Positions 19,408-43,609 of a DNA stretch of 64,000 bases are shown here, piece after piece. The notes under the pieces were generated by a model that saw only the letters and a program-made list of their open reading frames with translations, was not told where the DNA came from and searched no databases. The position numbers and the translations under genes are program-made. How positions within the stretch are numbered: position 1 is the stretch's first letter; each line of letters begins with the position of its first letter. Origin of the DNA: a virus; IMG/VR virus record IMGVR_UViG_3300030329_004107, positions 4,328 through 68,327 of that record; one strand, 5' to 3'.

Positions 19408-20488
19408 CTAAAGCCTCGTCTTTACTCAATCCTAAAATTTTGCACTTTATATCGTCCATGTTTGACAAATTATCTACCTCTTCTGATACTATTTTTTTAC
19501 GCCGCTCTGCGATAGCAATCATTTTTTGTCTGGACTCTTCTTCTTTCCACATCTCTACTAAGTTTAAAATACTTGCGTTGCTTTTAAGCTGCGATTTTAA
19601 CTTGTCGCTTCTTTTTTCTTTTAAATCTCCAAGAAGCTTATGCTGTCGATTTACAGATTGATTATATTCAGTTTGAGCAGTATTGATTGACTCTACCAAC
19701 GACATAGCTATCCGTCGCCCTTCTGAGTCATCTGCTGATTGGTCTAAAAGCCGTTGAAGGTGCTCTACGCGCCGTTGGATGTTAACCGCGATAACCACCT
19801 CAACAGAAAGCACTATATATTGATCTACTTCTTCTTGAGTTAAATCTTCTTTATCGTGAGTATAGCGAACAAAACTGCTTTCAAATAACTCTCGATCTTC
19901 AATAGTTTCATAATTGTTAATTTGATGTAAAAACCTATAAGTATGAAGATAGCCAATAAGAGAGTTTATATCTCTTTTTTGTTTTGCTGTAATTTTATTT
20001 TTATTTATTCCGTGGAGTACATACTTATTTACTCTGGTGATGGCTCTATCTGCGTTTGTGGGCGGTTTGTATTCGCCTTGAGGCACGCTATTGTCATTTT
20101 GTGCTGATTCAATATTTAACGTCGAAATGAAGTCATTAACCGTTCTAGTCTCTTGAGAGAGATTGGATATCTTATCATCTTTGAATAGAATCCTAGCGAT
20201 TTCTACTGCCGTCATCATACCGGCGTTATTAACGATGAACTCTTTTTTTTCTTCGTCTAACTTTAAAACGCCTTTGTGCTTGTATTCGTGTGAGGCTCGG
20301 GCACGTATTTGCCTCGTAGCTAAAAACGCTTTTACGGCCTTTCCCTCTTTTGTTCGGCCATCTAGCTCTGGATTATCTGGATACGCTACTCTTATCAACT
20401 CTAATAAAGAGGGCGGGTTATCAGGCCGGTTATTCCACTCGCTCAAGATATCCTGTTGCTGCTGCGCGTTTAAATTCGGTAAACTCAT
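19400..20488 (-). CDS. Hypothetical helical protein (possible small terminase or DNA-binding protein)
   Basis: ORF upstream of the terminase; function inferred from position only. Confidence 0.4.
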   Translation of the reverse strand: MSLPNLNAQQQQDILSEWNNRPDNPPSLLELIRVAYPDNPELDGRTKEGKAVKAFLATRQIRARASHEYKHKGVLKLDEEKKEFIVNNAGMMTAVEIARILFKDDKISNLSQETRTVNDFISTLNIESAQNDNSVPQGEYKPPTNADRAITRVNKYVLHGINKNKITAKQKRDINSLIGYLHTYRFLHQINNYETIEDRELFESSFVRYTHDKEDLTQEEVDQYIVLSVEVVIAVNIQRRVEHLQRLLDQSADDSEGRRIAMSLVESINTAQTEYNQSVNRQHKLLGDLKEKRSDKLKSQLKSNASILNLVEMWKEEESRQKMIAIAERRKKIVSEEVDNLSNMDDIKCKILGLSKDEALDG

Positions 20489-21168
20489 ACTATATCAATG
20501 TTATTCTTATCTAGATGCTTTTTAACTTTTTCAATGATAGATTTTTTGATATTTTTAATTTGTTTATATCCGGGTGATCTGTTTTTTTCTGAAGTTTTGT
20601 ATCCTAGCTCTTCAGCCACTTCTTGTTCTGATTTATTGTTTATATAAAGACTTAGATATACTTTCCATTCTATAGGCTTTAAAATCTCCTTCATCTTTTT
20701 ATGGAGTTTCATTATATTAGACTCGACATCAAAAGAGTCGCTAGATTGACTGAAAACTTCTTGAGCGTGATTTTCTAAAGGTAAGGGTATTTTTAAGTCG
20801 TGAGCCCGCTTTTTAGTCCTTTCCCAAGTTTGATATAAAGGACATGTTGAATCTTGCTTGCCGTAAATCTCACATAGATTGTTGCCTTCTGCGGCTGCAC
20901 ATTTTAAACAAGGTCTACAATAATTACCATAGTTGTTTCTAATTAAATTTTTTATTTGATTTGATATGATTCTGTTGAGCCAAGGCGCTAAAGGCTTGGA
21001 TTGGTCGTAAAGATGCCACTTTTTGTATATGTGTATCCTTAGTATCTGAGACACATCATCGAAATCCATCCAAGGAATTGCTGTTAAATTCCATTTATTT
21101 TTGCGCTTGATAATTTCTTGATTTACTTCTTCGATACATTCTTCAAAAGTTCTCTCTTTCTGTTTTAT
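20485..21168 (-). CDS. Divergent sigma-factor-like protein (candidate late sigma)
   Basis: DFDDVSQ...WLNRIISNQIKN (region 2-like) and SEQEVAEELG (region 4 HTH). The frame stays open upstream of the ATG at 21069 to an ATA at 21168 preceded by AGGAG. Confidence 0.65.
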   Translation of the reverse strand: MKQKERTFEECIEEVNQEIIKRKNKWNLTAIPWMDFDDVSQILRIHIYKKWHLYDQSKPLAPWLNRIISNQIKNLIRNNYGNYCRPCLKCAAAEGNNLCEIYGKQDSTCPLYQTWERTKKRAHDLKIPLPLENHAQEVFSQSSDSFDVESNIMKLHKKMKEILKPIEWKVYLSLYINNKSEQEVAEELGYKTSEKNRSPGYKQIKNIKKSIIEKVKKHLDKNNIDIV

Positions 21169-24885: not shown

Positions 24886-25146
24886 CTAATAAGTTGGCCG
24901 CTTGCGGTTGAGGCTTTTGGATACAGCGCGAATAGCTTTGACGCTCATGGCGCAAGCAGGAACATGGCTCCAACCATTAGGGCGACGAATGCTCAAATTG
25001 AAATCGTGCATTCCGTGTGGGTAGTGAGCGAGAAAGCCACGAATGAATGCAATAGCTTCCTCGTCAGTGTCTAGCTCGGCAAGCACAACGTTTTTCCAAT
25101 TCGTACCCGCATCGTTTCTTTCGACTGTAAATTTTTCTTGTTTCAT
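24886..25146 (-). CDS. Hypothetical early protein
   Basis: ORF in the micro-gene array. Confidence 0.5.
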   Translation of the reverse strand: MKQEKFTVERNDAGTNWKNVVLAELDTDEEAIAFIRGFLAHYPHGMHDFNLSIRRPNGWSHVPACAMSVKAIRAVSKSLNRKRPTY

Positions 25147-25167
25147 TTTGTCTTTTGGTTAATCTAG

Positions 25168-25359
25168 TTATGCGGCAACCCACTCGTCTTTGCCTGTTTC
25201 AATGTCCGCCAACACAAAGCCAACGGGGTCATCTCCAGACCAGTAGCTTTCTCCGTCAGAACACATCTCCATTTGAATTTCGGTGATGCGCCACAGCTTC
25301 CCGTTATACTCAACGACGTTTCCCACGTCGCTCCAATCGTTGTAATCTTTATCTTTCAT
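25168..25359 (-). CDS. Hypothetical early protein
   Basis: ORF directly after the sigma54-type motif at 25370-25392. Confidence 0.55.
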   Translation of the reverse strand: MKDKDYNDWSDVGNVVEYNGKLWRITEIQMEMCSDGESYWSGDDPVGFVLADIETGKDEWVAA

Positions 25360-25693
25360 AATCTATCCTATACACAGCAGGTTGTGTGCCAAAATCATTA
25401 AACTTTTTTTATGAGACATTTACAGACGCGCTCCCCTTTTTTAGAAGTGCAAAATAGTCTGTCAGCAACACGTTGCGCGTGTTCCTCATTCCTTGCGTTA
25501 ACGAACCCAAGGGTGGCGTCTCCATCGAATGTGAGAACTTCAAATAATTTTTCTTTCTTCATCGTTTTCATCTTCTACCTCTTACACAGCAGGTTGTGTG
25601 CCAAGTTTCTATTCTGCTAGGCCAATGGCCCAACACAGGCCCAAGCCAATCACGGCGCAAGGTGCGGCGATAATTAAAATCTCGTTAATCATT

Positions 25694-25771
25694 TTATCCT
25701 TTCCTTAACTGGCTTGTCAGCCAGCAAAGCCAGAGCAGCGTCAAGCTAAATGCAAATAATGGTTCAATCAT
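25694..25771 (-). CDS. 25-aa membrane micro-protein MIEPLFAFSLTLLWLCWLTSQLRKG
   Basis: Paralog at 48094-48168 supports coding status. Confidence 0.5.
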   Translation of the reverse strand: MIEPLFAFSLTLLWLCWLTSQLRKG

Positions 25772-25947
25772 CTTTAGTCCCTGTCTTTCAGGTTGAGTGG
25801 AGCATTGAATTGGGCATCCCAACGGGCTTGCTCCTCGTCACGCTTTCTGTTGACTTCTTGCCTTGCTTTCATTGCAGCGAGCCATTCGTGTAGGTCGCTC
25901 TTGAACTCGTTTAGGTTTTCTTTGTTGTCTTTCATAATATCTACCTC

Positions 25948-26070
25948 TTACACAGCAGGATGCGTGCCAAGTTCGCGTTGCGTTTGTTCTAGCATTGCTT
26001 CTAGTTGGTCGAGTTGAGCGAGTGCCATCATCAAGGCTCGCTCTAGTTTGGCTTGTTCTTTGTCGTTCAT
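25948..26070 (-). CDS. 40-aa helical micro-protein MNDKEQAKLERALMMALAQLDQLEAML...
   Basis: Follows a sigma70-type promoter; paralog at ~27051-27183. Confidence 0.55.
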   Translation of the reverse strand: MNDKEQAKLERALMMALAQLDQLEAMLEQTQRELGTHPAV

Positions 26071-26139
26071 TGTTGTTATAAGATAGCACAAGATTGGCCA
26101 TTTGTCAAGGGGTAAAATGCATTTTTTTTCAAAAAAAGT

Positions 26140-26186
26140 TTGACACTTGGCACGGAGGCTGCTGCCGCCCCGCCGCACATTGTCAA
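26140..26186. repeat. 47-bp element copy 1 (TTGACACTTGGCACGG...GCACATTGTCAA)
   Basis: Directly visible repeat. Confidence 0.9.
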
Positions 26187-26301
26187 GGGGAAAGGGGAGT
26201 TTTTTTCGGTATGTTTTCAACCTTCCTGTGTTCCCCACACAGCCTTTCCTTTTCCTTTCGGTTCCCCGCTTCATTGCGAGAAATTATAAAATTATCACAT
26301 T

Positions 26302-26326
26302 AAAAAAAAGCCCGCTTTCGCGGGGT
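26302..26326 (-). terminator. Rho-independent terminator
   Basis: CCCGC-GAAA-GCGGG hairpin plus T-run. Confidence 0.7.
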
Positions 26327-26331
26327 GAGGT

Positions 26332-26547
26332 TTACAGAAGCTCGCGCTTCTCGACCCATTTGAGGTAGGCATCGGAGTGATAACCGCACCATTCTTGGTA
26401 CTGGTCATCATACTCGCGAATCTCCTCTTCCCTCACGCGGAAGGACTTGTCGCCATCGACGACCAGCCACTTGCCGTTGCGCGGCGAGGCGGCGACTACT
26501 CCGAGGTAGCCGTTGAGGTTTTCAACCTCCATACCTAATTCGATCAT
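26332..26547 (-). CDS. Hypothetical early protein
   Basis: ORF followed by a terminator. Confidence 0.5.
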   Translation of the reverse strand: MIELGMEVENLNGYLGVVAASPRNGKWLVVDGDKSFRVREEEIREYDDQYQEWCGYHSDAYLKWVEKRELL

Positions 26548-26597
26548 AATGATATTAAAAGGGCGCGATCTCCGAGGCCATCGCGCTGGCCCATATT

Positions 26598-26780
26598 CTA
26601 GTTTGCGTAAAATTCTTCGCTGGTCGGCATCATGTCGCGGAAGTCGTCCTCGATGTTTATAGTGCTTTCCTGCACTCTGGACGACATCGCGGCGGCGATG
26701 CGGTTGGCGTGGTCTTGGTCGGTGGCCCGCACAAATTCGCGTTGGCCGTTTACTTGAGTTTCAAAAATGTTGTCGTTCAT
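26598..26780 (-). CDS. Hypothetical early protein (MNDNIFETQ...)
   Basis: ATG right after a consensus TTGGCACACAACTTGC box. Confidence 0.5.
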   Translation of the reverse strand: MNDNIFETQVNGQREFVRATDQDHANRIAAAMSSRVQESTINIEDDFRDMMPTSEEFYAN

Positions 26781-26812
26781 ACCTATACACAGCAAGTTGT
26801 GTGCCAATTCAT

Positions 26813-27046
26813 TTAAAACTTTTCTACAAAAAATTCTTCGCCCCAAGCTTCCAAGTGAAATTCTTCTTTGGGCAACCATCCCATCCAGCCATCCGATGCA
26901 CGGACAAGCCACATCGGGGGAAAGGCATTGTCATTGCGACGTTCCAGAATGAAACCCTTTGCGCCATGCTCACGGATGCGGTTTTTGGTGCGCGTGGTGG
27001 CTTTGCTGTTGGGGCTGATTAAGATTCTTTGTCCTTCGATGTTCAT
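26813..27046 (-). CDS. Hypothetical early protein (MNIEGQRIL...)
   Basis: ATG right after a sigma54-type box. Confidence 0.5.
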   Translation of the reverse strand: MNIEGQRILISPNSKATTRTKNRIREHGAKGFILERRNDNAFPPMWLVRASDGWMGWLPKEEFHLEAWGEEFFVEKF

Positions 27047-27412
27047 ACTATTACAGAGCAGGATGCGTGCCAAGTTCGTTTTGTGTTTGCTCGACCATTG
27101 CTTCCACTTGGTCGAGTTGGGCGAGTGCCATCATAAAGGCTCGTTGCAGTTCGGCTTGTTGTTCTTCGTTCATCATCATGCATAGAGCATATCACAGAGG
27201 GTGGGACATCCGTAGTCCTACCTTTTGTTTTTCTTTTTCCACTCTTTCACGAGTTGCTTCACTGCTTCCACGGATTCCTTCCAGCGTTGCACGCGTCTTT
27301 CAACCTTGCGCTGCTGCTCTCTCTTTTGTTCTTCAGTCATCATGCGTATACTATAACACAGGGGGTGGGACATCCGCAGTCCTACCAAAAAGAAAGTTGA
27401 AAAAATTTTGCC

Positions 27413-27459
27413 TTGACACTTGGCACGGAGGCGGCTGCGGCCCCGCCGCACATTGTCAA
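27413..27459. repeat. 47-bp element copy 2
   Basis: Directly visible repeat. Confidence 0.9.
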
Positions 27460-27511
27460 GCCCCAATACCAAAAAAGCAAGACAACGTGGGCGAGGTTAG
27501 TATTTAATTAT

Positions 27512-27790
27512 TTAATATTCATCATCTTCCCATTTATAATCTATTGGTGGAAGCAATTCGTAAAGCTCCTCGCCTCTTTGAATGCTCAAAATGTATGGTT
27601 CAATTTCTGGAAGGTAAACGCTTCCCCATTCGTCTGCAAAACCCATGACGAAACCATAAGCAATTCCTTCGCTGTCTGTTTCGCCAAGGTAATATTCCCA
27701 GCCGTGTCGAGTGATAATGTGTTGGGCGACCTCGAATGGTTCGCCGCCATTCATGTGGATGATCTTGCGAGTTTTATGTAATGTTTTCAT
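27512..27790 (-). CDS. Hypothetical protein (DUF2958-like)
   Basis: AYGFVMG..DEWGSVYLPEI pattern. Confidence 0.45.
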   Translation of the reverse strand: MKTLHKTRKIIHMNGGEPFEVAQHIITRHGWEYYLGETDSEGIAYGFVMGFADEWGSVYLPEIEPYILSIQRGEELYELLPPIDYKWEDDEY

Positions 27791-27791
27791 A

Positions 27792-28022
27792 TTAGTTTAA
27801 TTCTGGTCTGGATGTAAAACCATGCGCTGCTTGCACTTGATTCGCTTGCTCGATTAGGTCTGGGCAAGCGTCCCAAGCCCATGCCGAGAACTCAAGAACG
27901 CTCTCGGTGTCTTCGAATTGCGGACTGTCTTTGACGCAATCCCACAGGTCAATGATGGCAATCCAATTGTTTTTATTCCATGTGGCCCATTCGGGCAGTT
28001 CGTTGATGGGTATGTTTTTCAT
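27792..28022 (-). CDS. Hypothetical protein
   Basis: ORF packed in tandem. Confidence 0.5.
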   Translation of the reverse strand: MKNIPINELPEWATWNKNNWIAIIDLWDCVKDSPQFEDTESVLEFSAWAWDACPDLIEQANQVQAAHGFTSRPELN

Positions 28023-28219
28023 TTTTTAGTTCCAGTTTTCTTGGAGGGCAACGACCTCTTTTTCTTCTTCTTCAGTAGGTTGTTTTACTCCGTCGCATAC
28101 TGCGTCGAGCAGCTTGAGAGTAGGCTTGTCAAAGTTCTCCACGGTGTTTTCCTCGTGGCTCCAATCGTTGTGTTCTTCAATCATCATATCTACCTCTTAC
28201 ACAGCAGGATGCGTGCCAA

Positions 28220-28408
28220 CTAGGGTTCTACTTTTCTCAAAAGGCTTTTCTGCATAACGAAATTCGCACCATGCTTTGCGTGAGGAGGAGTGTGCCATAC
28301 CCACACACGGCCCGTTACGGGGCGAGTCGGGTCAAGGTCATGGGTTACAATACCACGCCAACGCGGATTGTCACGGTGCTTTACTTTGTCGTCTACTTTA
28401 ATCTTCAT
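28220..28408 (-). CDS. Small SH3-like/hypothetical early protein
   Basis: KVDDKVKH...GIV pattern; follows a sigma54-type box. Confidence 0.45.
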   Translation of the reverse strand: MKIKVDDKVKHRDNPRWRGIVTHDLDPTRPVTGRVWVWHTPPHAKHGANFVMQKSLLRKVEP

Positions 28409-28647
28409 ATCTACCTCTTACACAGCAGGATGCGTGCCATCTTTAGTCTCTGTCTCTGATGTCATTACCATCGTTGTCGTTGTAATAACCCGACACGCCC
28501 CACTGCTTGTCGTAGTTGGGGAGGTTGTTCGTCACTGGTCGCACAGGGGGAAGCTCAGGCACGGGTACTTCCAATGCGGCTGCTTTTTTGGTTTCTTCTT
28601 TGTCTTTCATAATCTCTACCTATACACAGCAGGTTGTGTGCCAAGTT

Positions 28648-28926
28648 TTAGTCGCCGTGATAGTGGCCTTGCTTGTAATACTGAACCAATTCGTTGTTGC
28701 GGGATTCGGTCAATGCTTGATGCTCCCAGACATTGGAGTAGTGTCTATGCTTGAGGAAAAATTGCCCCTCGAAACAGGCAACCCATGTTTGGAGTTTGCT
28801 GGCCAATTCAATCGCCGCCTCAAGCCCTTCGTGAGACTTGGCGAAATAATGGCTTTCCTCGTTCTCATAATCGTACACGCAATAGTGCGGTGTGGTGTTT
28901 AATTGTTCTTCGTTCATTTTCATCAT
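28648..28926 (-). CDS. Hypothetical early protein
   Basis: ATG after the GGACTACGGATGTCCC promoter motif. Confidence 0.5.
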   Translation of the reverse strand: MMKMNEEQLNTTPHYCVYDYENEESHYFAKSHEGLEAAIELASKLQTWVACFEGQFFLKHRHYSNVWEHQALTESRNNELVQYYKQGHYHGD

Positions 28927-29183
28927 GTGATTAGTATAGCATAGGGGGTGGGACATCCGTAGTCCTAGTGACTTAATTCCCAAGCAATTTCTAGCTTGGC
29001 CCAGCTTCGATTAGTTGTGCCACGCTGGGCAGCGTGTTCAAGCTGACGGAAACGCAAATTCGCTTCATGCTTGGTTTTCTCCTTGCAAGCAAGGGCAACG
29101 TTCTCGGCGGTGGTGTTTTTCTTCGTGTTGTTTTTCATACCCTATACACAGCAGGATGCGTGCCAACCCATTGTTAAGGGGAA

Positions 29184-29260
29184 TGGTAGGCAAGGTGGGA
29201 CTCGAACCCACGACCCACGGTTTAGAAGACCGTTGCTCTATCCAACTGAGCTACTTGCCC
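29184..29260 (-). tRNA. tRNA-Arg(UCU)
   Basis: GGGCAAG acceptor stem, D-arm AGCTCAGTTGGATAGAGC, anticodon arm ACGGT-CTTCTAA-ACCGT, GGTTCGAGTCC T-arm, encoded CCA. Confidence 0.95.
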
Positions 29261-29314
29261 AAATCTGTTCCTATACACAGCAGGATGCGTGCCAACCTCG
29301 ACGCGAAAAAAAAC

Positions 29315-29361
29315 TTGACACTTGGCACGGAGGCCGCTGCCGCCCCAGCGCACATTGTCAA
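29315..29361. repeat. 47-bp element copy 3
   Basis: Directly visible repeat. Confidence 0.9.
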
Positions 29362-29419
29362 AAAAAAAGCGCCACAAAAAAGCAAAGGCGTGGCGGCTTA
29401 TTTGTTATTTGTTCCTTTC

Positions 29420-29614
29420 TTATTTCTTATTTAAATAGCTATCGGTTTCTTCTTCGGAAGCCATTCTCAAATTCTTTGCTTTTAATAGCTCCGGTTTGTT
29501 GTCGTGGTGAGTAACCCACACGCTAGAAGTGTTAGCCTTTGCTCTTGCTCGCCATACTTTACCGGAGGCTTCTTCCGCATAAAGGGAGCCGTTTTTAATA
29601 TGATTAATATTCAT
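29420..29614 (-). CDS. Hypothetical protein
   Basis: ORF with RBS AAAGGA. Confidence 0.5.
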   Translation of the reverse strand: MNINHIKNGSLYAEEASGKVWRARAKANTSSVWVTHHDNKPELLKAKNLRMASEEETDSYLNKK

Positions 29615-29817
29615 CAGTTATCCTTTCATCACTTGGGAAATGTGCGTCTATCTGGTCGGGGTAGATGTACGCTTCTTCTCCATCATCATCTGCAACCCAA
29701 TAGCCATCTTCACAAACCTCTTCTACTATGAATTGTTTTATTCCAATAACAATTAGGTCTTTCTCTTTTATCTTCATTGCTATAATTAGTTTATACTACG
29801 CTTTAAATTTAGTCAAG

Positions 29818-30015
29818 CTAAAATGTTCTATGTATCAAATCTTTTGGTGTGGTGGTTGGTGGTCGCCACCCTTGGTCGCACTTGCAATACTTCGGGCAAT
29901 CATCCTCTGCGCTTCCCTCTTTTGCCACCGTTTCGTGACAGGTGGGGCAAAGGAATAGTCGGCGCATCTGTGGGTAATCTCGGCAAAACTTTTTTGTCTT
30001 TGGCCCATACTTCAT
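29818..30015 (-). CDS. Small Cys-rich (Zn-binding) protein
   Basis: CPTC and CPKYC motifs; RBS AAGGAGG. Confidence 0.5.
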   Translation of the reverse strand: MKYGPKTKKFCRDYPQMRRLFLCPTCHETVAKEGSAEDDCPKYCKCDQGWRPPTTTPKDLIHRTF

Positions 30016-30025
30016 TTAATCCTCC

Positions 30026-30211
30026 TTACAGATAATCCTTACAGATAACGCGGCGCACAGCATCATGGTCAGGTGTGTAGGAATACTCTGTGTGAACCAA
30101 GTCACCCATACCATCCAACACTTCATTTACTGCATCTTGCTTGCTAATTGCTTCGACTTCAAACGTAGCGCAGTGAATCTCGTTTAATTCTACTTTGTAT
30201 AATCTTTTCAT
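30026..30211 (-). CDS. Hypothetical protein
   Basis: FEVEA.S..DA pattern common in small phage proteins. Confidence 0.5.
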   Translation of the reverse strand: MKRLYKVELNEIHCATFEVEAISKQDAVNEVLDGMGDLVHTEYSYTPDHDAVRRVICKDYL

Positions 30212-30212
30212 T

Positions 30213-30413
30213 TTAATCCTCCACTATGTCCATTCGTGCAACGGTGTTTCCGTTATGGTCTTGCGCTGTTACAAAGTCACCAGCATCAACCGCCATCATT
30301 CTTCCAGCGCGAGCCAACAACCTGTCTGTCACATTGTTCATTTCAAACAAGCGTTCCGCAGGAGTATCGCCAAACGCTTCGTTGCCTAGTTCAATTTTAA
30401 TTATAGCTTTCAT
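30213..30413 (-). CDS. Hypothetical protein
   Basis: IELGNEAF...DHNGNTV pattern; follows a sigma54-type box. Confidence 0.55.
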   Translation of the reverse strand: MKAIIKIELGNEAFGDTPAERLFEMNNVTDRLLARAGRMMAVDAGDFVTAQDHNGNTVARMDIVED

Positions 30414-30444
30414 TTGTATGTACGCAGCATGTTCCGTGCCAAGT

Positions 30445-30717
30445 TTACACTTGGGCTTGTGCTTTTACAATATCATCAAATTCCATCATGTGATATTCGT
30501 TCCCGCTTGTAAGGGAGGTTATGTGGTCGTTGTAGAGTGGCACTCGGCCTTCTCGGAGAGAGGCGATGTTTTTTAAATCCACCGCATCAAGTTCGGCGGC
30601 GAGAGTGTTTCTCCGTGTCCCATCATCCCATGTGCGTTGGTCTCGCTCCGCTATGTCTGCTTGAAGGCGACGGATGTGAGCGGAGAATAGTTCGTTTACT
30701 TTTTTGTCTTGTTCCAT
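30445..30717 (-). CDS. Hypothetical protein
   Basis: ORF. Confidence 0.5.
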   Translation of the reverse strand: MEQDKKVNELFSAHIRRLQADIAERDQRTWDDGTRRNTLAAELDAVDLKNIASLREGRVPLYNDHITSLTSGNEYHMMEFDDIVKAQAQV

Positions 30718-30751
30718 AATCTTTATAATGTTTCTATGTCAATGCTTTTTG

Positions 30752-31015
30752 TTAAAGTTTTTTAATGACGTTTATCCAATCTTGTACATCACTTTCATTC
30801 TGCCAACCTTTGACGGTATCACCCCAATCAGCAGGGTCAATCATATGATTGTTAAAGAATACGCCAATTTCATACAAACCTTTTTCGCTACCGTGAGAAA
30901 ACTTATGCTTCACCACGGAAACATCGTAGCCATTAGGTAATTCCACATACGCCTGAATCGCACCTTCTCCATGCGTTTCAGAGATGTCATCAAATTTTAA
31001 ATCTTCAAACTTCAT
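30752..31015 (-). CDS. Conserved-looking phage hypothetical protein
   Basis: PNGYDVSVV...GLYEIGV pattern. Confidence 0.55.
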   Translation of the reverse strand: MKFEDLKFDDISETHGEGAIQAYVELPNGYDVSVVKHKFSHGSEKGLYEIGVFFNNHMIDPADWGDTVKGWQNESDVQDWINVIKKL

Positions 31016-31220
31016 AGTGTTTCAATATAAATGCCTGTTAATATAATAACAATAAAAGACGCGATACCCACGCTAATTACAAAACATAAATCTCTATCGT
31101 CTTTCATAAAATTCTGAACCCTCGTTTTTTAGATGCTCTCCTGCATCACGGGTTCTCTCAAACAACTGACATAATATAGCACACAAAGGTCAGCTTGTCA
31201 AGGGGTGTAATGCATTTTTT

Positions 31221-31652
31221 TCATTTTCTGTACTTGTCTTCCCACCACCAAATACTGCTAGGCTCGGTGAGGTAGGCCCACACGCCATCTGTACGAATCT
31301 CAACGAACCACGCTTCTCTTACTGGAACGGACTCGTCCTCTACCAAAACAAAACTCTTATGTTTATAAGGGTTGTAAGTAATCTTCTGCCACGCGCAAAG
31401 CTCAATGCCGGTGCTGTAGTCATCAATCAGCGATTCCCGCATTCTCATGCCTTGAATGTAAGCGTGAACGTTTTTGCGCTTCTCGTCACGCACTCGCTGG
31501 TTGCCTTTCGGGCCTACCCTCAAGACGGGGCGACTTAACGCAATTTCTGTAACGTGGTCTACAACAATACCTTTGTCATTGCGAACACTATAAACCGATG
31601 TGCCTTCTTTGGTAGTTTTGTGTAGGTTGCGGTATACTTGTACTTTTTCCAT
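31221..31652 (-). CDS. Conserved-looking phage hypothetical protein
   Basis: VYRNLHK...KRKNVHAY...TYNPY; RBS GGAGG. Confidence 0.6.
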   Translation of the reverse strand: MEKVQVYRNLHKTTKEGTSVYSVRNDKGIVVDHVTEIALSRPVLRVGPKGNQRVRDEKRKNVHAYIQGMRMRESLIDDYSTGIELCAWQKITYNPYKHKSFVLVEDESVPVREAWFVEIRTDGVWAYLTEPSSIWWWEDKYRK

Positions 31653-31654
31653 GT

Positions 31655-31861
31655 TTAGTCCTCCTGCCCGCCAAAGATTCCGTCTTGGCAAGTCTGACAA
31701 TAAGCCGAAATGCCGTACTCTTTGCGGCTGAGTTCGTCGCGGAACTCAAGGTTGTACTGGCCGCACTTGACGCACTGGCCCGCAGCCAGCGCGATATTGC
31801 GGCTACGGCCAAATAGGTTTAGGCACATCGCCTCTTTCATGTCTTCTATCTCGTTTAACAT
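31655..31861 (-). CDS. Small Zn-finger protein
   Basis: CVKC...SRKEYGISAYCQTCQD. Confidence 0.6.
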   Translation of the reverse strand: MLNEIEDMKEAMCLNLFGRSRNIALAAGQCVKCGQYNLEFRDELSRKEYGISAYCQTCQDGIFGGQED

Positions 31862-31899
31862 AATAAAATATAGCACAGGTTGGTTGGTTTGTCAAGGGC

Positions 31900-32016
31900 T
31901 CAACCCCAATTTTTCTGATGTTTTTTCCGACGACGGAAAGAGCCTTTACCCTTCTTGACTTTATGCTCACGGGACGCGCTTCCCATGAACCCTTGTTTGT
32001 TTACTCTTGCTTTCAT
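31900..32016 (-). CDS. ArfA-like (alternative ribosome-rescue factor A) micro-protein, not in ORF track
   Basis: MKARVNKQGFMGSASREHKVKKGKGSFRRRKKHQKNWG; KKGKGS[F/Y]xR matches the conserved ArfA motif. Confidence 0.55.
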   Translation of the reverse strand: MKARVNKQGFMGSASREHKVKKGKGSFRRRKKHQKNWG

Positions 32017-32064
32017 ACCCTATACACAGCAGGTTGCGTGCCAACCTCGATGCGAAAAAAAAAC

Positions 32065-32111
32065 TTGACACTTGGCACGGCGGCGGCTGCCGCCCCAGCG
32101 CACATTGTCAA
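32065..32111. repeat. 47-bp element copy 4
   Basis: Directly visible repeat. Confidence 0.9.
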
Positions 32112-32219
32112 GAGGAATCGCCGCACCAGCGAAAAACAAAAAAACTGATGCGGCGATTATTTGTTGGATATTTATTTCTTATTTATTTATATTTGTTCTG
32201 CCCCTTCTATTTAATTATT

Positions 32220-32450
32220 CTATTGGCGAACTTGCGGCACAGGCGGCAGGGCCACGCTAACAAAGCCCTTCAGCTTTGCCGACAGCATATGTTCCAACAG
32301 AGGCTCGGCGGCCTTAATGTTGTAGATACGGTAGGCTTCGGCTTTCGCCTTGGCGTGAGACACACCCCGCTTCTTTTGAGCGATGATGTGATTTGTAACC
32401 TGCGCGGCCTTGACCGCGTTTTGGGCTTGGTAGGTTTTATATGTTTTCAT
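32220..32450 (-). CDS. Basic hypothetical protein
   Basis: ORF with RBS AAAGGA. Confidence 0.5.
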   Translation of the reverse strand: MKTYKTYQAQNAVKAAQVTNHIIAQKKRGVSHAKAKAEAYRIYNIKAAEPLLEHMLSAKLKGFVSVALPPVPQVRQ

Positions 32451-32533
32451 TGTCTTATCTTATCCTTTCTTTGTTGGCGATGTTAAAAATATAATTACTG
32501 TAAATACTACTAATAGAGCAAAGAGCATATCCA

Positions 32534-33315: not shown

Positions 33316-33822
33316 TCATTTTTCTAAAGAACTTTTTGCTTGGCCCCAACGCCCACCACCATCACCATCGACGCAACCATGCTCTTGCTTTTGCAAGAAC
33401 GCAAAACCAGCAGTTTCTTGCGCGTCGAATGGTTCTTGGTAAGGCTCATATAAAGAGTTGATTTTGATGCAGCGACCCTCACCCACTAGCGGTTCAAAAC
33501 TATCATATAATTCCTTGGCGATTACTTTCGCGGTGGGCATGGCCCCGCCTTTTACTTTTTTCCATGCTACGCTTCCAGCGTCATTTAATAGCTTAAACAA
33601 TGTTGCGTTTTCAATAGCTTTTAAAATTTTGTCGCGCCCTAAAACTTCTCCATCCCCACGCGCCCAAAAGGTTGCGCGAGTTGCGTTTTGCCATTCTAAT
33701 TCGCCGCTTGTTGCGCCATGATTCCAAAACGAATAAAACCGTTCTGTGATTTCTTGTTGATCGTCGCCTTCTAAAACTACTGCGGTGTCTTTGCCGTGAT
33801 GCTGTAACTTGGTTGTAATCAT
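33316..33822 (-). CDS. Hypothetical protein
   Basis: ATG 6 nt after the TATATT of a sigma70-type promoter. Confidence 0.55.
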   Translation of the reverse strand: MITTKLQHHGKDTAVVLEGDDQQEITERFYSFWNHGATSGELEWQNATRATFWARGDGEVLGRDKILKAIENATLFKLLNDAGSVAWKKVKGGAMPTAKVIAKELYDSFEPLVGEGRCIKINSLYEPYQEPFDAQETAGFAFLQKQEHGCVDGDGGGRWGQAKSSLEK

Positions 33823-33887
33823 ATAACAATATAGCACAAAATAGCTACTTGTCAAGGGGCCGAGGGTTTTTTTTGAAAAAAGTTTTT

Positions 33888-33934: not shown

Positions 33935-33955
33935 GCCTTTTTTACGAACAAGGCA

Positions 33956-35268: not shown

Positions 35269-35556
35269 TCAGGAGCGCTTCTTTTTTGGACGGCCTCGTG
35301 GTCTGGCAGAGACGACAGTTACCGGATTTCCGAGTTCATCCAAAGCTTGATATCCATTCCATTCGAATTGATCGCCTACCGGAGATAGAGCACGGGTCCG
35401 CGAGGTCTCTGGCCCCAACCACGTCACTGTACCTGCTGTGCCCTCTAAGGTATCAAAGTCCTTTACGGCGACGGTGGCATTCTGGTTGCTCGGGGTATCG
35501 ATCCGTGCATGCGTAGCGCCCTTCGGTGGGCGGGGAATGACTAGTTCTTTTGACAT
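35269..35556 (-). CDS. Hypothetical protein with an AT-hook-like C-terminus
   Basis: RPRGRPKKKR; start overlaps the RuvB-like stop. Confidence 0.5.
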   Translation of the reverse strand: MSKELVIPRPPKGATHARIDTPSNQNATVAVKDFDTLEGTAGTVTWLGPETSRTRALSPVGDQFEWNGYQALDELGNPVTVVSARPRGRPKKKRS

Positions 35557-36536
35557 TATTTTGGTAATTTAATTTTAGTTGGCGCGGGCTTGTCAACTTG
35601 CTTGAGGTACTTTTGCCCCTTGGCGGTTAGTGCGCGTCCCGCAGTTGTAATCTCCATGAGACTCTGCTTCTGAAGATACATCTCGAAATCACGCTGCAAG
35701 CAGGACTTGGTTAATCCTGTTTTAGCGGCGAGGTAAGTCAAAGAGCAATCTTTCTTCTCGGAAAGAATCTGCAAGACTTGATGCTCGATAGGAGACAAAC
35801 CCAGAGGCATAATAGCCAGAGAATGTTTCATGTTGTCCCAATCTTGTCTGGAGAAATGAGTCTTATCTTTACCAGCGAGATAGGTACGAATGTTGTTCGC
35901 CATCTTCTGAGCAGCGCGAGCATTGCCGCGCAGCACGGTGGCAATATCAGCAGTTAGACCATCATCAAAGGTGAAGTCAGCGCAGACACGGTTAACAATC
36001 TCTCCGAGTTGGTCGTAAGTATATTCCTCAAGGTCAACACGCTCACACCTGTCCATCAAGGCGTGGAAGATGTGTTGAGCTTCGGTGGTGGCGAACATGA
36101 ATGTCTGCCGAGAGAAGTCAAAATCGACAGTGTAATCCTCGCAAGAGAAGGTGGTGCGATTCTCCGAATTAGGATTCAAGATAGTCAGCAACGCCATCGT
36201 CAGGTCTTTGGGCAGTTCGGATGCCTCATCAAACAAGACGGTAACTTCCTTGTGATTAATGTGAGGAATAACCACTTGGTTGAAGAACTGCTTTACGCTC
36301 TTGAGAGTCGAGCAGTTTAGCTCGATAAAAGTCTTTGTTTTTTCGCTACCACGGCGATTCAAGTGCTTGCCTGTTGCTTTGGCGAGCATGGTTTTGCCGC
36401 ACCCTTTGGGGGCCACGAACATGATGTGCGGGCAGATGTTGTTGCCTTTGTAACCGTCAAGATAAAAGTCGAGTCGGCGTTTTGCCTTGTCTTGGCCCAC
36501 GATGTTAGACCAGCGTTCAGTAGGATTTGTCGTCAT
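35556..36536 (-). CDS. ruvB: RuvB-like AAA+ ATPase
   Basis: IVGQ, APKGCGKT, LFDE, FATT, RGNAR, C-terminal wHTH-like FEMYL...TAGRALT. Confidence 0.7.
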   Translation of the reverse strand: MTTNPTERWSNIVGQDKAKRRLDFYLDGYKGNNICPHIMFVAPKGCGKTMLAKATGKHLNRRGSEKTKTFIELNCSTLKSVKQFFNQVVIPHINHKEVTVLFDEASELPKDLTMALLTILNPNSENRTTFSCEDYTVDFDFSRQTFMFATTEAQHIFHALMDRCERVDLEEYTYDQLGEIVNRVCADFTFDDGLTADIATVLRGNARAAQKMANNIRTYLAGKDKTHFSRQDWDNMKHSLAIMPLGLSPIEHQVLQILSEKKDCSLTYLAAKTGLTKSCLQRDFEMYLQKQSLMEITTAGRALTAKGQKYLKQVDKPAPTKIKLPK

Positions 36537-36542
36537 AATTCT

Positions 36543-36571
36543 AATATAGCACACGCTTTAGGTTTTGTCAA
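36543..36571 (-). promoter_or_regulatory. Consensus sigma70 promoter TTGACA-N17-TATATT with extended TG (one of ~15 copies)
   Basis: TTGACAAAACCTAAAGCGTGTGCTATATT. Similar copies near 26090, 31185, 31880, 33290, 33840, 34950, 36875, 37530, 39495, 42525, 45870, 50525, 53530 and 57460. Confidence 0.8.
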
Positions 36572-42547: not shown

Positions 42548-43609
42548 TCATTTTTTTCTCAAAGGGTTATCATCATATCCATAACACTGATTAGAAAGAC
42601 CCTTTAGTTTAGCCAGTGCGATAAATTGTATCTGTCTGATTCTCTCCCTAGTGAGGCCATGTCTCTCGCCAATTTTTTCAAGCGTTTCACTCTCTTTGTT
42701 ATCCAAGCCAAAGCGATAAATGAGAATTTGTTTTTCACGGCGCGTTAATTGGCTTAAAAACTTTTCAAGCACTTCAATATCTTCAGAAAATTCATACTGG
42801 TCAGAAGGTGACTCGCTATCGTCTGGGATCATAGCCTCAAGATCGGGTGGGCTGTCGGAAACGGTGGAGTGGTTGCGTGAGGCGGGTTCTTGCAAAGAGC
42901 AAATATTCATCACCCCGCTCTCAAAAACATTTTCAACCATATTAACCGAGCATTTGGCTCCTTTAGCAATTTGCTCTCTAGTAGGTTCGTGACCATGTTC
43001 ATCTTTAAATTCATTTTTAAAAGTTAGAATACGATAATAAGCGTCCCGCGCATTTTCGGGCAATGCAATCACACGGGCATCACGGGCCAGCAAACGGAGA
43101 ATAGATTGGCGAATCCAAAAAGCTGCATAAGTAGAGAGTTTAGTCCCTTTTCCTAGCTGGAATTTATCAACTGCTCGCATCAATCCAATGTTTCCTTCGC
43201 TAATCAAATCATCCAAAGGAACACCGCATTTACTATAATCCCCTGCTATTTTAACAACGAGTAAAAGATTAGATGTTATTAGCTTTTCTCTTGCTTCTCG
43301 ACCAATTCTACGAACTCGGCCATTGCAACCGTTTTTTAAAGCGCGAGTGTCTCTCCATTTAATAAAATCAGTAAATAGCTTTTGTTCTTCGGCGCGTTTT
43401 AATCTAGGGAATTTGCCTATTTCTTCTAGGTACATTCCTAAAGCAGTTTCGTTATCGTTATCCCAAATTTGAACGCCGTCTTTGTTCTCTTTTTCCCATT
43501 GACGTTTTTTCAGCCTTGCCGCATTAAGCTTCCTAAACCTAGAATTGGTGCTATTGCGTTTGCTTGCTGCTTCTGATTTGGTCATTTTCTTTTTCGATTG
43601 TTTTTTCAT
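42548..43609 (-). CDS. RpoD/RpoS-like sigma70 factor
   Basis: DLISEGNIGLMRAVDKF, STYAAFWIRQSI, TLEKIGERHGLTRERIRQI. Confidence 0.92.
   Translation of the reverse strand: MKKQSKKKMTKSEAASKRNSTNSRFRKLNAARLKKRQWEKENKDGVQIWDNDNETALGMYLEEIGKFPRLKRAEEQKLFTDFIKWRDTRALKNGCNGRVRRIGREAREKLITSNLLLVVKIAGDYSKCGVPLDDLISEGNIGLMRAVDKFQLGKGTKLSTYAAFWIRQSILRLLARDARVIALPENARDAYYRILTFKNEFKDEHGHEPTREQIAKGAKCSVNMVENVFESGVMNICSLQEPASRNHSTVSDSPPDLEAMIPDDSESPSDQYEFSEDIEVLEKFLSQLTRREKQILIYRFGLDNKESETLEKIGERHGLTRERIRQIQFIALAKLKGLSNQCYGYDDNPLRKK

What the first reader, a model, noticed from the sequence alone, without database searches (positions are those of the whole stretch)
25370..32044. Phage micro-gene array driven by 12 co-oriented sigma54-type promoters
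Seen: 12 copies of a TTGGCACRCAWCYTGCT-like box on the minus strand (the 28440 and 30442 copies deviate slightly), each about 12-20 nt upstream of a short ORF start or the tRNA. One copy (26807) is a full consensus TTGGCACACAACTTGC. Established: TGGCAC-N5-TTGC with GG-N10-GC spacing is the RpoN promoter, and sigma54 holoenzyme needs a GAFTGA-bearing AAA+ activator to open. Phage early promoters are normally sigma70-like. Inference: this phage runs a dedicated sigma54 regulon, letting a host signal or a phage activator gate a set of takeover genes. Alternatively the array titrates host RpoN. No GAFTGA protein was seen in this window.
Basis: partly seen in the sequence, partly recalled or inferred. 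Interest (0 to 1): 0.88.

Follow-up and report, generated by a model that had tools for sequence, protein, structure and literature searches.

The report
Phage gene array with sigma-54-type promoters
A fragment of a large uncultured marine phage appears to start a dozen tiny genes and a tRNA from copies of the bacterial sigma-54 promoter signature, placed so that each message begins at or just before its start codon; this is an unusual way for a phage to control genes, and it still needs a laboratory test.

Summary
Twelve co-oriented copies of TTGGCACRCAWCCTGCT(GTGTAWAGG) lie on the minus strand at 25367-32044 (0.94 expected). They precede 11 small ORFs and tRNA-Arg.

Context marks them as promoters. 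Two directly follow hairpin plus T-run elements. Orthologous genes in related phages carry consensus TTGACA/TATATT promoters at the same spot.

The geometry is that of sigma-54. GG-N10-GC never varies in 213 related instances. The ATG lies 12-13 nt after the GC in 122 of 224 instances, which puts the predicted +1 on the start codon. No sigma-70-type reading fits.

There is independent support. Eighty viral loci that encode GAFTGA-type activators hold 62 such boxes (4.3 expected), with the same TGCT..TATA tail.

Open points:
- There are no TSS data.
- The record is only about 39% of a roughly 175-kb genome and holds no activator or rpoN.
- The host is unknown; one relative is binned in a Flavobacteriales MAG that has rpoN.
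- No shared enhancer site was found.

The phage also encodes two sigma-70-family factors and uses two other promoter classes. This scan has noted sigma-54-type leaderless promoter sets in other uncultured phages before.

Verdict: probably sigma-54-dependent, near-leaderless cassette promoters. This is a new variant of known kinds and is untested.

The parts
31900..32044 (-). Box 32019-32044 plus 38-aa ORF 31900-32016. C of GC to ATG is 13 nt. A hairpin and T9 lie directly upstream.
30213..30442 (-). Box 30417-30442 (2 mismatches, CATGC) plus 66-aa ORF 30213-30413. Distance 14 nt.
   Evidence: Orthologues in L083, L090 and L091 align from residue 1.
29184..29295 (-). Box 29270-29295 plus tRNA-Arg(TCT) 29184-29260. 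C of GC to the tRNA 5' end is 20 nt. A hairpin and T8 lie directly upstream.
28965..29166 (-). Box 29141-29166 plus 57-aa ORF 28965-29138. Distance 13 nt.
28443..28644 (-). Box 28619-28644 plus 55-aa ORF 28443-28610. Distance 19 nt.
28220..28440 (-). Box 28415-28440 (ATGGCAC, 1 mismatch) plus 62-aa ORF 28220-28408. Distance 17 nt. Orthologues in L082, L085 and L087 sit behind TTGACA/TATATT-type promoters.
28026..28219 (-). Box 28194-28219 plus 53-aa ORF 28026-28187. Distance 17 nt.
26813..27073 (-). Box 27048-27073 plus 77-aa ORF 26813-27046. Distance 12 nt, so the predicted +1 falls on the A of ATG. The L088 orthologue is 87% identical from residue 1.
26598..26807 (-). Box 26782-26807 (CTTGCT form) plus 60-aa ORF 26598-26780. 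Distance 12 nt.
25774..25970 (-). Box 25945-25970 plus 53-aa ORF 25774-25935. Distance 20 nt.
25398..25604 (-). Box 25579-25604 plus 57-aa ORF 25398-25571. Distance 18 nt. The L085 orthologue sits behind a TTGACA/TATATT promoter.
25168..25392 (-). Box 25367-25392 plus 63-aa ORF 25168-25359. Distance 18 nt.
29296..29360 (-). Terminator-like hairpin (CTTGACA...TGTCAAG arms) plus T8, ending about 10 nt before box 29295. The plus strand reads as an antisense TGGCAC-N5-nnGC box.
   Evidence: Folds at -21 kcal/mol with z -0.12.
32045..32110 (-). Second copy of the hairpin plus T9, directly before box 32044.
   Evidence: Folds at -23.5 kcal/mol with z -1.05.
31173..31201 (-). Class-1 promoter inside the array: TTGACA, 17 nt, TATATT, with TG before the -10.
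31867..31895 (-). Class-1 promoter inside the array: TTGACA, 17 nt, TATATT, then 6 nt to ATG.
27344..27375 (-). Class-3 promoter-like element: GGATGTCCCACC, then TGTGTTATAGT, then 6 nt to ATGATG. Two more copies lie at 27180-27211 and 28927-28958.
42548..43609 (-). Phage-encoded full sigma-70-family factor (353 aa, regions 1.2, 2, 3, 4). It is the likely reader of class-1 promoters and is not expected to read the boxes.
20485..21069 (-). Small sigma-70-family protein (194 aa, region 2 hit) ahead of the packaging genes. It is conserved in 50 related loci, most of which have no boxes.
35556..36554 (-). AAA+ protein, RuvB/clamp-loader-like, with a C-terminal winged helix. It has no GAFTGA loop and is not a sigma-54 activator.

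Best explanation
The 12 boxes are promoters of the sigma-54 (RpoN) type. The host core RNA polymerase carrying host sigma-54 would bind TGGCAC (-26 to -21) and CTGCT (-15 to -11). After ATP-driven opening by an AAA+ activator, it would start about 12-13 nt after the C of GC. That point is the A of the ATG, or one base before it, in the short class (leaderless mRNA). In the long class it is 5-8 nt before the ATG, and it gives a leader of about 8 nt on the pre-tRNA. Each box heads one small gene cassette in a hyperplastic region. That region also uses consensus sigma-70-type promoters (class 1, probably read by the phage's own sigma factor) and a third class, so neighbouring cassettes answer to different regulators. 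The activator is not identified. It may be a host enhancer-binding protein, or a compact phage-encoded one (AAA+ domain only, acting without an enhancer) in the unseen 61% of the genome. Shown: the motif, its constraint, its placement, and the promoter swap with relatives. Inferred: sigma-54 dependence, the start site, the need for an activator, and the activator's identity.
For: (1) The motif is real and over-represented: 12 co-oriented copies against 0.94 expected, and nowhere else in the record.

(2) Promoter context. Boxes 29295 and 32044 lie about 10 nt after a hairpin plus T8-9 and 20 or 13 nt before a tRNA or an ATG, so nothing else can start these units. One box serves a tRNA, which rules out a purely translational signal.

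(3) Promoter swap. Orthologues of the genes behind boxes 28440, 25604 and 32044 sit behind TTGACA/TATATT-type promoters in L082, L085 and L087. GP88 orthologues sit behind a box in 15, behind class 1 in 3, and behind neither in 7 of 25 relatives, while this phage uses class 1 there. The relative L082 has 14 TTGACA-N17-TATATT promoters in the same array, 6-9 nt before the ATG.

(4) Sigma-54 fit. In 269 unique instances from this phage, its relatives and metagenome contigs, the unconditioned flanks also match the extended consensus: T before TGG in 244, G after CAC in 250, T after GC in 269.

(5) Constraint. With one substitution allowed in TGGCAC/TGC, 213 instances show changes only at the last C of TGGCAC (T in 43, A in 1). 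GG and GC never change.

(6) Start-site geometry. The distance from the C of GC to ATG peaks at 12 (56 instances) and 13 (66) among 224 instances with an ORF. It stays at 12-13 whether the TATA lies 3, 4 or 5 nt after the C. A paper passage places the two motifs at -24 and -12 relative to the start (PMC12316311, passages read).

(7) Independent association. Eighty viral loci were chosen only for encoding an enhancer-binding protein with GAFTGA/GSFTGA loops. They hold 62 boxes against 4.3 in shuffles, in 50 of the 80 loci, often just after the activator gene and with the same TGCT..TATA tail. One such phage, G007 (47.6 kb, 95% complete, with terminase and DNA polymerase), has a box at the head of each arm.

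(8) Bacterial contigs picked by the box pattern carry NtrC-type activators within about 1 kb (L151, L160, L172).

(9) The family uses the host polymerase core. It encodes sigma factors, and no T7-type or beta-subunit RNA polymerase was found in G000 or four relatives.

(10) The one genome-collection relative of the terminase is binned in a Flavobacteriales MAG that has rpoN. Shine-Dalgarno use is low, 9 of 40 genes against an 11% background.
Against: There are no transcription start, expression or binding data; the public runs gave only contigs. No sigma-54 activator (PF00158) or sigma-54 (PF04552) was found in the 68-kb record, in five box-bearing fragments, or in the 79%-complete box-less relative G004. 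None of the 80 activator-bearing viral loci is a close relative. No shared upstream 8-mer that could be an enhancer exists within 160 nt: the best is 4 of 12, and controls average 4.08. The host is unknown, and a single binned MAG contig is weak evidence. If the host were a cyanobacterium or actinobacterium, there would be no sigma-54. In 6 of the 11 ORF copies here, and in 67 of 224 instances overall, the ATG is 17-20 nt after the GC. There an AGG/GAGG lies 6-8 nt before the ATG, and the stretch TGTG-TAAGAG/TATAGG plus 6-9 nt plus ATG lines up with the extended -10 of classes 1 and 3. For that subclass a -10-type reading places the start on the ATG just as well. Conservation extends beyond what sigma-54 is known to need: A at -18, C at -16, and TATA at about -8 to -5. 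The instance set is partly biased, because many loci were fetched with a pattern that contains the exact core.
Confidence: 0.62

Rival explanations
1. The box is read by a phage-specified system that only resembles sigma-54 geometry. Candidates are a phage DNA-binding activator or sigma appropriator that binds TTGGCAC..CCTGC and works with a weak extended -10 (TGTG-TATAGG/TAAGAG), or an unrecognised phage sigma or polymerase encoded in the unseen 61% of the genome.
For: The phage encodes two sigma-70-family proteins. Class 3 also has a proximal upstream element (GGATGTCCCACC) joined to TGTG-TATAGT. The long-class boxes align with classes 1 and 3 as TGTG, a hexamer, 6-9 nt, then ATG. TATA is conserved after the box. 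About 61% of the genome is unseen.
Against: In the majority class the ATG lies 1-3 nt after the TATA hexamer, so a -10-type start would fall inside the ORF. The ATG position follows the GC and not the TATA. The small sigma is conserved in 50 related loci, most without boxes. The large sigma has sigma-70-like residues in regions 2.4 and 4.2 (comparison from recall). The same box type is tied to GAFTGA activators in unrelated phages. No phage RNA polymerase was found in G000 or four relatives (the T7-type search had no positive control).
Confidence: 0.18
2. The boxes are ordinary sigma-70-type promoters that use TTGGCA as the -35 hexamer.
For: TTGGCA is one mismatch from TTGACA. The consensus scan lists two boxes (27073, 25392) at 9 of 12 matches.
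Against: The spacer from TTGGCA to TATAGG is 14 nt. The two scan hits use hexamers that overlap or abut the ATG, so the start would lie inside the ORF. The position that would be -11 is mostly G: A 50, C 29, G 169, T 21 of 269. The same genome shows what its real sigma-70-type promoters look like, TTGACA with 16-17 nt to TATATT.
Confidence: 0.04
3. The repeat is not a promoter. It would be an RNA-level signal for translation or processing, like the start-associated sequences of cluster K mycobacteriophages (recalled), or merely a homology patch for cassette recombination.
For: It lies at a fixed short distance from start codons. Joints between environmental contigs cluster at regulatory repeats: 17 of 30 endpoints lie within 15 nt of elements that cover 17% of the region, though only 3 of them are at boxes.
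Against: One copy precedes a tRNA. Two copies follow terminator-like hairpins with T-runs directly. Orthologous genes have bona fide consensus promoters at the same place in relatives. The motif is strand-specific and asymmetric, and it matches a known promoter class to the base.
Confidence: 0.06
4. The boxes bind sigma-54 holoenzyme but are not meant to fire. They would act as decoys that titrate host RpoN, or as bound roadblocks or insulators between cassettes.
For: Sigma-54 holoenzyme forms stable closed complexes without an activator (established knowledge). No activator and no enhancer were found.
Against: Each box is placed at promoter distance in front of a gene that otherwise has no promoter. 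The tight 12-13 nt spacing to the ATG would have no purpose for a decoy. Twelve sites are few for titration.
Confidence: 0.05

Closest known systems
Bacterial sigma-54 (RpoN) -24/-12 promoters activated by AAA+ enhancer-binding proteins (examples recalled: glnAp2/NtrC, pspA/PspF, nifH/NifA)
   Same: TGGCAC and TGC blocks with GG-N10-GC spacing; T before TGG, G after CAC, T after GC; an asymmetric, strand-specific motif. The consensus TGGCAC-N5-7-TTGCT and the -24/-12 placement are as quoted in PMC12316311 (passages read).
   Different: They are carried by a phage, in an array of 12 within 6.7 kb. No enhancer site is shared, and no activator is present in the available 39% of the genome. CTGCT is more common than TTGCT. 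TATA is conserved 3-5 nt after the GC. The ATG lies at the predicted +1/+2, giving leaderless messages.
PeSL (promoter-early stem-loop) cassettes of T4-type phages (Arbiol et al. 2010, PMC2839356; abstract read)
   Same: Small regulatory cassettes (promoter plus stem-loop) separate many small non-essential genes in a hyperplastic region. Relatives differ by gain, loss and swapping of units. Environmental contigs join at the repeats. Earlier notes of this scan reached the same comparison for box-less relatives.
   Different: PeSL promoters are strong sigma-70-like ones. Here one of three cassette promoter classes is of the sigma-54 type. Only 2 of 12 boxes have the hairpin directly upstream. 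Mini-circles were not examined.
Phage-encoded compact enhancer-binding proteins with their own sigma-54 boxes, seen here in uncultured viral contigs (G007 and 79 other IMG/VR loci)
   Same: The same box type, (a)gtTGGCACG..YTGCT..TATA. Some have the ATG 13 nt after the GC. The carriers are phages: G007 has terminase, DNA polymerase and primase/helicase.
   Different: Those phages carry the activator: GAFTGA/GSFTGA loops, and 38 of 52 complete ORFs are 306 aa or shorter. They have one to four boxes per locus. This phage shows 12 boxes and no activator so far, and it shares with them only a distant DUF932 protein (28-35% identity). I found no paper on such phage activators. GenBank phage hits were mislabelled bacterial contigs.
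T4 middle promoters (MotA box plus sigma-70 -10, with AsiA; recalled, not tested)
   Same: A phage-specific upstream element replaces the -35 hexamer. This would be the model for the rival reading.
   Different: The MotA box lies about 12 bp upstream of the -10. Here TGCT is 3-5 nt from the TATA, and the ATG is too close to the TATA for a -10 function in the majority class.

Membership tests
sigma-54 (RpoN)-dependent promoter | GG and GC dinucleotides separated by exactly 10 nt, within TGGCAC-N5-TTGC-like blocks | tested here: met
   12 of 12 window copies have the spacing. 0 of 213 related instances change GG or GC when one substitution is allowed. The -15 base is C in 243 and T in 26 of 269 instances.
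sigma-54 (RpoN)-dependent promoter | Co-oriented with, and upstream of, the transcribed gene | tested here: met
   All 12 are on the coding strand, 12-20 nt before an ORF or the tRNA. 9 of 11 ORFs have homologues in relatives.
sigma-54 (RpoN)-dependent promoter | Transcription starts about 11-13 nt after the GC | not testable with these tools
   Only contigs of public runs were available. Indirect evidence: the ATG is at 12-13 nt in 122 of 224 instances, independent of the TATA offset.
sigma-54 (RpoN)-dependent promoter | Activity requires RpoN and an AAA+ enhancer-binding protein with a GAFTGA loop | not testable with these tools
   No PF00158 or PF04552 in the 68-kb record or in five box-bearing fragments. 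About 61% of the genome is unseen. A MAG holding a related terminase has rpoN.
sigma-54 (RpoN)-dependent promoter | Upstream activator (enhancer) sites | tested here: not met
   No 8-mer is shared by more than 4 of the 12 upstream 160-nt stretches; random segments average 4.08 with a maximum of 6. This feature is common but not obligatory: activators without a DNA-binding domain exist, as in 38 of 52 viral ORFs here.
sigma-70-type promoter (-35/-10) | Two hexamers 16-18 nt apart, with A at -11 and the start 6-8 nt after the -10 | tested here: not met
   The spacer from TTGGCA to TATAGG is 14 nt. The would-be -11 is G in 169 of 269. The ATG is 1-3 nt after the hexamer in the majority class.
PeSL-type regulatory cassette | A promoter paired with a stem-loop terminator between small genes of a hyperplastic region, used as a recombination site | tested here: inconclusive
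   The hairpin plus T-run lies directly upstream of 2 of 12 boxes. Hairpins fold at -20 to -28 kcal/mol, but z is only -0.1 to -1.4. Gene content and promoter type differ between relatives. Contig joints are enriched at the repeats.
single-subunit (T7-type) phage RNA polymerase promoter | A phage-encoded T7-type polymerase and a rigid contiguous promoter ending in TATA before +1 | tested here: not met
   No PF00940 in G000, G004, G006, G001 or G009, though the search rang in no control genome. The TATA offset from the box varies between 3, 4 and 5 nt.
bacterial enhancer-binding protein (for the AAA+ protein at 35556-36554) | GAFTGA loop inserted in the AAA+ domain | tested here: not met
   No such motif is in the sequence. 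The profile alignment to five enhancer-binding proteins has a 13-residue gap exactly at the loop. The best family matches are RuvB and clamp loader.

The most novel reading that the evidence does not exclude
A widespread clade of roughly 175-kb uncultured marine phages has replaced sigma-70-type cassette promoters with sigma-54-type ones that give leaderless mRNAs. It fires them without any enhancer site and without a canonical phage-encoded activator. That would require either a host activator working from solution on a dozen or more phage promoters, or a new, non-GAFTGA way of opening sigma-54 closed complexes. More broadly, sigma-54-dependent transcription, often with compact phage-borne activators, would be a common but undescribed mode of phage gene control.
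Probability: 0.3. Interest if true: 0.85.

Novelty: new variant of a known kind. Interest (0 to 1): 0.68.

Why it matters
Textbook phage programmes run on sigma-70-family holoenzymes, phage sigma factors or phage polymerases. Sigma-54 is treated as a tightly gated host system for nitrogen, flagella and stress. If phages place whole sets of accessory genes under sigma-54 promoters, those genes are silent until an ATPase activator fires. That gives a clean switch, orthogonal to the phage's sigma-70-type promoters.

The 12-13 nt spacing to the ATG would also make this a natural system of leaderless messages from sigma-54 promoters. The side result is directly testable: at least 88 viral contigs encode short GAFTGA activators next to such boxes. 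I found no published description of this.

Practically, the boxes and compact activators could serve as orthogonal expression parts. The promoter type could also help predict hosts, because the host must have rpoN.

Tried and rejected
RNA evidence. The look-up of sequencing runs found one marine metatranscriptomic library (X1, share 0.05) and one run of unknown kind (X2, share 0.25), both kept only as contigs. Laying them gave no starts or ends (its table 6 was empty). X1 has pieces with 0 differences (records 1 and 6), but an RNA library can hold DNA, so this does not show transcription. Uncovered bins mean nothing.

Cultured relatives. There are none in 50,697 GenBank phage records: DNA search, terminase at best 25% identity, sigma factor at best 39%.

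Close relatives of the large sigma factor in IMG/VR: none by pattern search. One 42%-identical homologue lies in G004.

Candidate activators in the window, both rejected:
- The AAA+ protein at 35556-36554 lacks the GAFTGA loop.
- The 192-aa protein at 33316-33894 sits after DUF932, where other phages have their activator, but shows no similarity (probability 0.2%) and no Pfam family.

Host's own promoters. The pattern TGGCACGNNNNYTGCW hits the Flavobacteriales MAG only twice, which is too few to compare.

Hairpins as terminators. They fold, but no better than shuffles, so I call them terminator-like only.

Cyanophage hallmark. No PF00124 in five related records. This does not settle the host.

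G005 (165 kb, complete) has one box but is unrelated.

Literature. Searches found no paper on phage arrays of sigma-54 promoters or on phage-encoded GAFTGA activators. The nearest was a 2026 preprint on a T4-like protein 'structurally similar' to enhancer-binding proteins that acts on host genes (abstract read). Supplements were not consulted.

Full report
WHAT IS THERE. The window is bases 4328-68327 of a single 68,327-bp IMG/VR virus record. The record is linear, and CheckV rates it 39% complete, so the phage is probably about 175 kb and most of it is unseen. Nearly all genes run on the minus strand. Identified genes include terminase, portal, a tail fibre with collagen-like repeats, rIIA/rIIB, ThyX, PhoH, a 2OG-Fe(II) oxygenase, proline dehydrogenase and an ornithine-cyclodeaminase-family protein.

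There are 12 minus-strand copies of TTGGCACRCAWCCTGCT between 25392 and 32044, ten of them exact. Shuffles give 0.94 matches on average, and 0 of 100 reach the observed count. None lies elsewhere in the record. The conserved block extends to GTGTAWAGG, while the flanks are otherwise unrelated, apart from two pairs of copies that share upstream sequence. Each copy precedes a 38-77-aa ORF or tRNA-Arg(TCT).

THEY ARE PROMOTERS. Three observations from the sequence and from relatives argue for this.

- Boxes 29295 and 32044 sit about 10 nt after a hairpin with a T8-9 run and 20 or 13 nt before the tRNA or the ATG. Only the box can supply a start there. The hairpins fold at -21 to -28 kcal/mol but no better than shuffles, so I call them terminator-like only.
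- One box serves a tRNA, which excludes a purely translational signal.
- The family is large: at least 598 IMG/VR stretches encode a terminase 69-80% identical. Relatives carry the same array with other promoters. L082 (GP88 protein 80% identical) has 14 copies of TTGACA-N17-TATATT, with TG before the -10, lying 6-9 nt before the ATG.

Orthologues of the genes behind boxes 28440, 25604 and 32044 sit behind such promoters in L082, L085 and L087. Conversely, GP88 is behind a class-1 promoter here, but among 25 relatives it is behind a box in 15, class 1 in 3, and neither in 7 (many of those loci were picked for having a box). So boxes and consensus sigma-70-type promoters are interchangeable at the same gene starts.

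WHICH POLYMERASE FORM. The box fits the sigma-54 signature beyond the two core blocks. Among 269 unique instances (this window, relatives L090, L091 and L012, and 103 metagenome contigs found with the pattern), the positions that my filter did not fix also agree. T precedes TGG in 244, G follows CAC in 250, and T follows GC in 269.

When one substitution is allowed in the nine core bases, 213 instances with independent features show changes only at the last C of TGGCAC (T in 43, A in 1). GG or GC never changes.

The distance from the C of GC to the ATG has a sharp main peak at 12 (56 instances) and 13 (66) among 224 instances with an ORF. That peak does not move when the downstream TATA lies 3, 4 or 5 nt from the C. 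So the start codon is tied to the GC. [quoted passage not shown] This is the same leaderless design as the family's sigma-70-type promoters.

A sigma-70-type reading fails for three reasons. TTGGCA is 14 nt from TATAGG. The would-be -11 base is mostly G. In the main class the ATG lies 1-3 nt after the hexamer. The start codon itself is confirmed for the 12-nt copy at 27073 by an 87%-identical orthologue that aligns from residue 1.

The family seems to use the host core enzyme. It encodes a full sigma-70-family factor (42548-43609) and a small one (20485-21069). No T7-type or beta-subunit polymerase gene was found in G000 or four relatives, including the 79%-complete G004 (the T7-type search had no positive control). 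The small sigma is conserved in 50 related loci, most without boxes, so it is not tied to the box.

INDEPENDENT SUPPORT FROM OTHER PHAGES. One contig picked up only by the box pattern is G007. It is 47.6 kb and 95% complete, and it carries terminase, DNA polymerase and primase/helicase. It shares no protein with this phage. It encodes a 277-aa protein that matches the sigma-54 interaction domain (E 1e-57). Its four boxes lie at the head of the structural arm, before a further structural gene, at the head of the replication arm, and right after the activator gene.

A profile of this protein and four homologues found 88 viral contigs with such genes. The 80 loci kept (709,451 nt) hold 62 boxes against 4.3 in shuffles (maximum 9). 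Fifty of the 80 loci have at least one, often 150-350 nt after the activator's stop, and they show the same (a)gtTGGCACG..YTGCT..TATA look. Six have the ATG 13 nt after the GC. The proteins carry GAFTGA or GSFTGA loops, and 38 of 52 complete ORFs are 306 aa or shorter, meaning the AAA+ domain alone.

Three bacterial contigs picked by the box pattern have NtrC- or PspF-type activators within about 1 kb. The GenBank phage collection gave only mislabelled bacterial contigs. So this box type is linked to sigma-54 activators wherever the activator can be seen, and phages with their own compact activators are not rare among uncultured viruses.

WHAT ARGUES AGAINST, OR IS MISSING.

- There is no start-site or expression evidence.
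- The record, five box-bearing fragments and the box-less relative G004 hold no activator and no rpoN.
- None of the activator-bearing viral loci is a close relative; they share only a DUF932 protein at 28-35% identity, which in 28 of them lies just upstream of the activator.
- The two proteins in comparable positions here are not activators.
- There is no shared enhancer-like word within 160 nt upstream of the boxes.
- The host is unknown. The only genome-collection hit for the terminase is a contig binned in a Flavobacteriales MAG, which has rpoN. Shine-Dalgarno motifs precede only 9 of 40 genes against an 11% background. No photosystem gene was seen in five related records. These are hints only. 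A host without rpoN would refute the reading; Actinomycetota 'effectively lacks' it (PMC12316311), and Synechococcus elongatus did not ring for the sigma-54 DNA-binding domain in the tool's controls.
- A second class of boxes (6 of 11 here, 67 of 224 overall) has the ATG 17-20 nt after the GC. In these, TGTG plus TAAGAG or TATAGG, plus 6-9 nt, plus ATG lines up with the extended -10 of classes 1 and 3. A phage factor working with a weak -10 would explain that class as well, but not the main class.
- Conservation of A at -18, C at -16 and the TATA goes beyond known sigma-54 needs. It may reflect host preference, ease of melting, or homogenisation of cassettes.

HOW IT PROBABLY WORKS. The region from about 37 kb to 25 kb is a hyperplastic block of small, self-promoted cassettes. 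Twelve class-1 promoters (cccTTGACAA-N13-14-TGCTATATT plus 5-7 nt to ATG) lie in the window, ten of them between 42.5 and 31.2 kb, and are probably read by the phage's own sigma-70-like factor. Three class-3 elements and the 12 boxes fill the rest.

I propose that the boxes recruit host sigma-54 holoenzyme into closed complexes. These would fire only when an AAA+ activator is present, giving a separate switch for these genes. Most messages would start on, or a few bases before, the ATG.

The cassettes resemble the PeSL cassettes of T4-type phages (PMC2839356, abstract), with a different promoter class. Contigs of a public run join at the regulatory repeats more often than chance (17 of 30 endpoints; elements cover 17% of the region). 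This is a weak hint, because the contigs come from mixed relatives and only 15 joints were listed.

Earlier notes of this scan describe PeSL-like cassettes in box-less relatives, and sigma-54-type leaderless promoter sets in unrelated uncultured phages. I treat these as leads, not as support.

VERDICT. Promoter function is very likely (about 0.9). Sigma-54 dependence is likely (about 0.6) but untested. The identity of the activator is open. This is a new variant of known kinds: sigma-54 promoters and PeSL-type cassettes. I found no published precedent.

Noticed in passing
window 42548-43609 (-) and 20485-21069 (-): The phage encodes two sigma-70-family proteins. One is a 353-aa factor with regions 1.2, 2, 3 and 4, next to rIIA; it scores about equally against cyanobacterial RpoD, RpoS and MzaA models, all below their cut-offs. 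The other is a 194-aa protein with a region 2 hit, just ahead of the packaging genes, and it is conserved in 50 related loci.
   Followed up: partly
window 57472, 50540, 42538, 39509, 36891, 36571, 34962, 33855, 33305, 31895, 31201, 10597 (all minus strand): Twelve near-identical consensus promoters, cccTTGACAA-N13-14-(TG)TGCTATATT. Most lie 5-7 nt before an ATG, which gives a leaderless design. Two automatic ORF calls (35556-36554, 36581-36874) start falsely inside such a promoter.
   Followed up: partly
window 27180-27211, 27344-27375, 28927-28958 (-): A third promoter-like class: GGATGTCCCACC, then an extended -10 (TGTGTTATAGT-like), then 6 nt to ATGATG. The same GTCCCACC element recurs in relatives L083, L086, L089 and L092.
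   Followed up: partly
window 26120-26190, 27395-27465, 29296-29360, 32045-32110, 33870-33940: Five copies of a roughly 47-nt hairpin with CTTGACA/TGTCAAG ends. The plus strand reads as a sigma-54-like box (TGGCACGG-N-GC). In relatives L083 and L084 the equivalent hairpins carry TGGCACG-N4-CTGC in the sense orientation. This could be the evolutionary source of the box promoters, or a coincidence of stem design.
   Followed up: partly
loci L107-L109 (record G007, 47,585 nt): An unrelated, 95%-complete phage encodes a 277-aa AAA+-only sigma-54 activator (loop GSYTGC). It has sigma-54-type boxes at the head of both divergent gene arms and right after the activator gene. The whole phage is apparently organised around sigma-54.
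   Followed up: partly
loci L216-L295 (IMG/VR): At least 88 viral contigs encode GAFTGA/GSFTGA enhancer-binding proteins, mostly 224-306 aa. In 28 of the 80 kept loci a DUF932 gene lies immediately upstream of the activator, and a sigma-54-type box often follows it.
   Followed up: partly
window 59607-61413 (-): Adjacent genes for an ornithine-cyclodeaminase/mu-crystallin-family protein (best NCBIfam hit is archaeal-type alanine dehydrogenase, below its cut-off) and a monofunctional proline dehydrogenase. This is an unusual auxiliary metabolic pair for a phage. ThyX and a nucleoside 2-deoxyribosyltransferase-like gene lie nearby.
   Followed up: no
window 31900-32016 (-): The 38-aa ORF behind box 32044 is very basic and carries a KKGKGSFRRRKKH stretch. 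Another first-reader note likens it to ArfA. It is conserved in L082, L083, L086, L087, L088, L090 and L091 (71-85% identity).
   Followed up: no
window 1-5088 (-), continuing to genome base 3923: An 1830-aa protein with collagen-like G-X-Y repeats. Its GGT/GGC-rich repeats give several chance near-matches to the box regex.
   Followed up: no
window 25001-33000 against public run X2: Contigs of relatives join distant parts of the array (skips of 0.1-4.5 kb and back-joins). 17 of 30 listed endpoints lie within 15 nt of promoter or hairpin repeats, mostly at class-3 and class-1 elements, which suggests cassette shuffling in the environment.
   Followed up: partly
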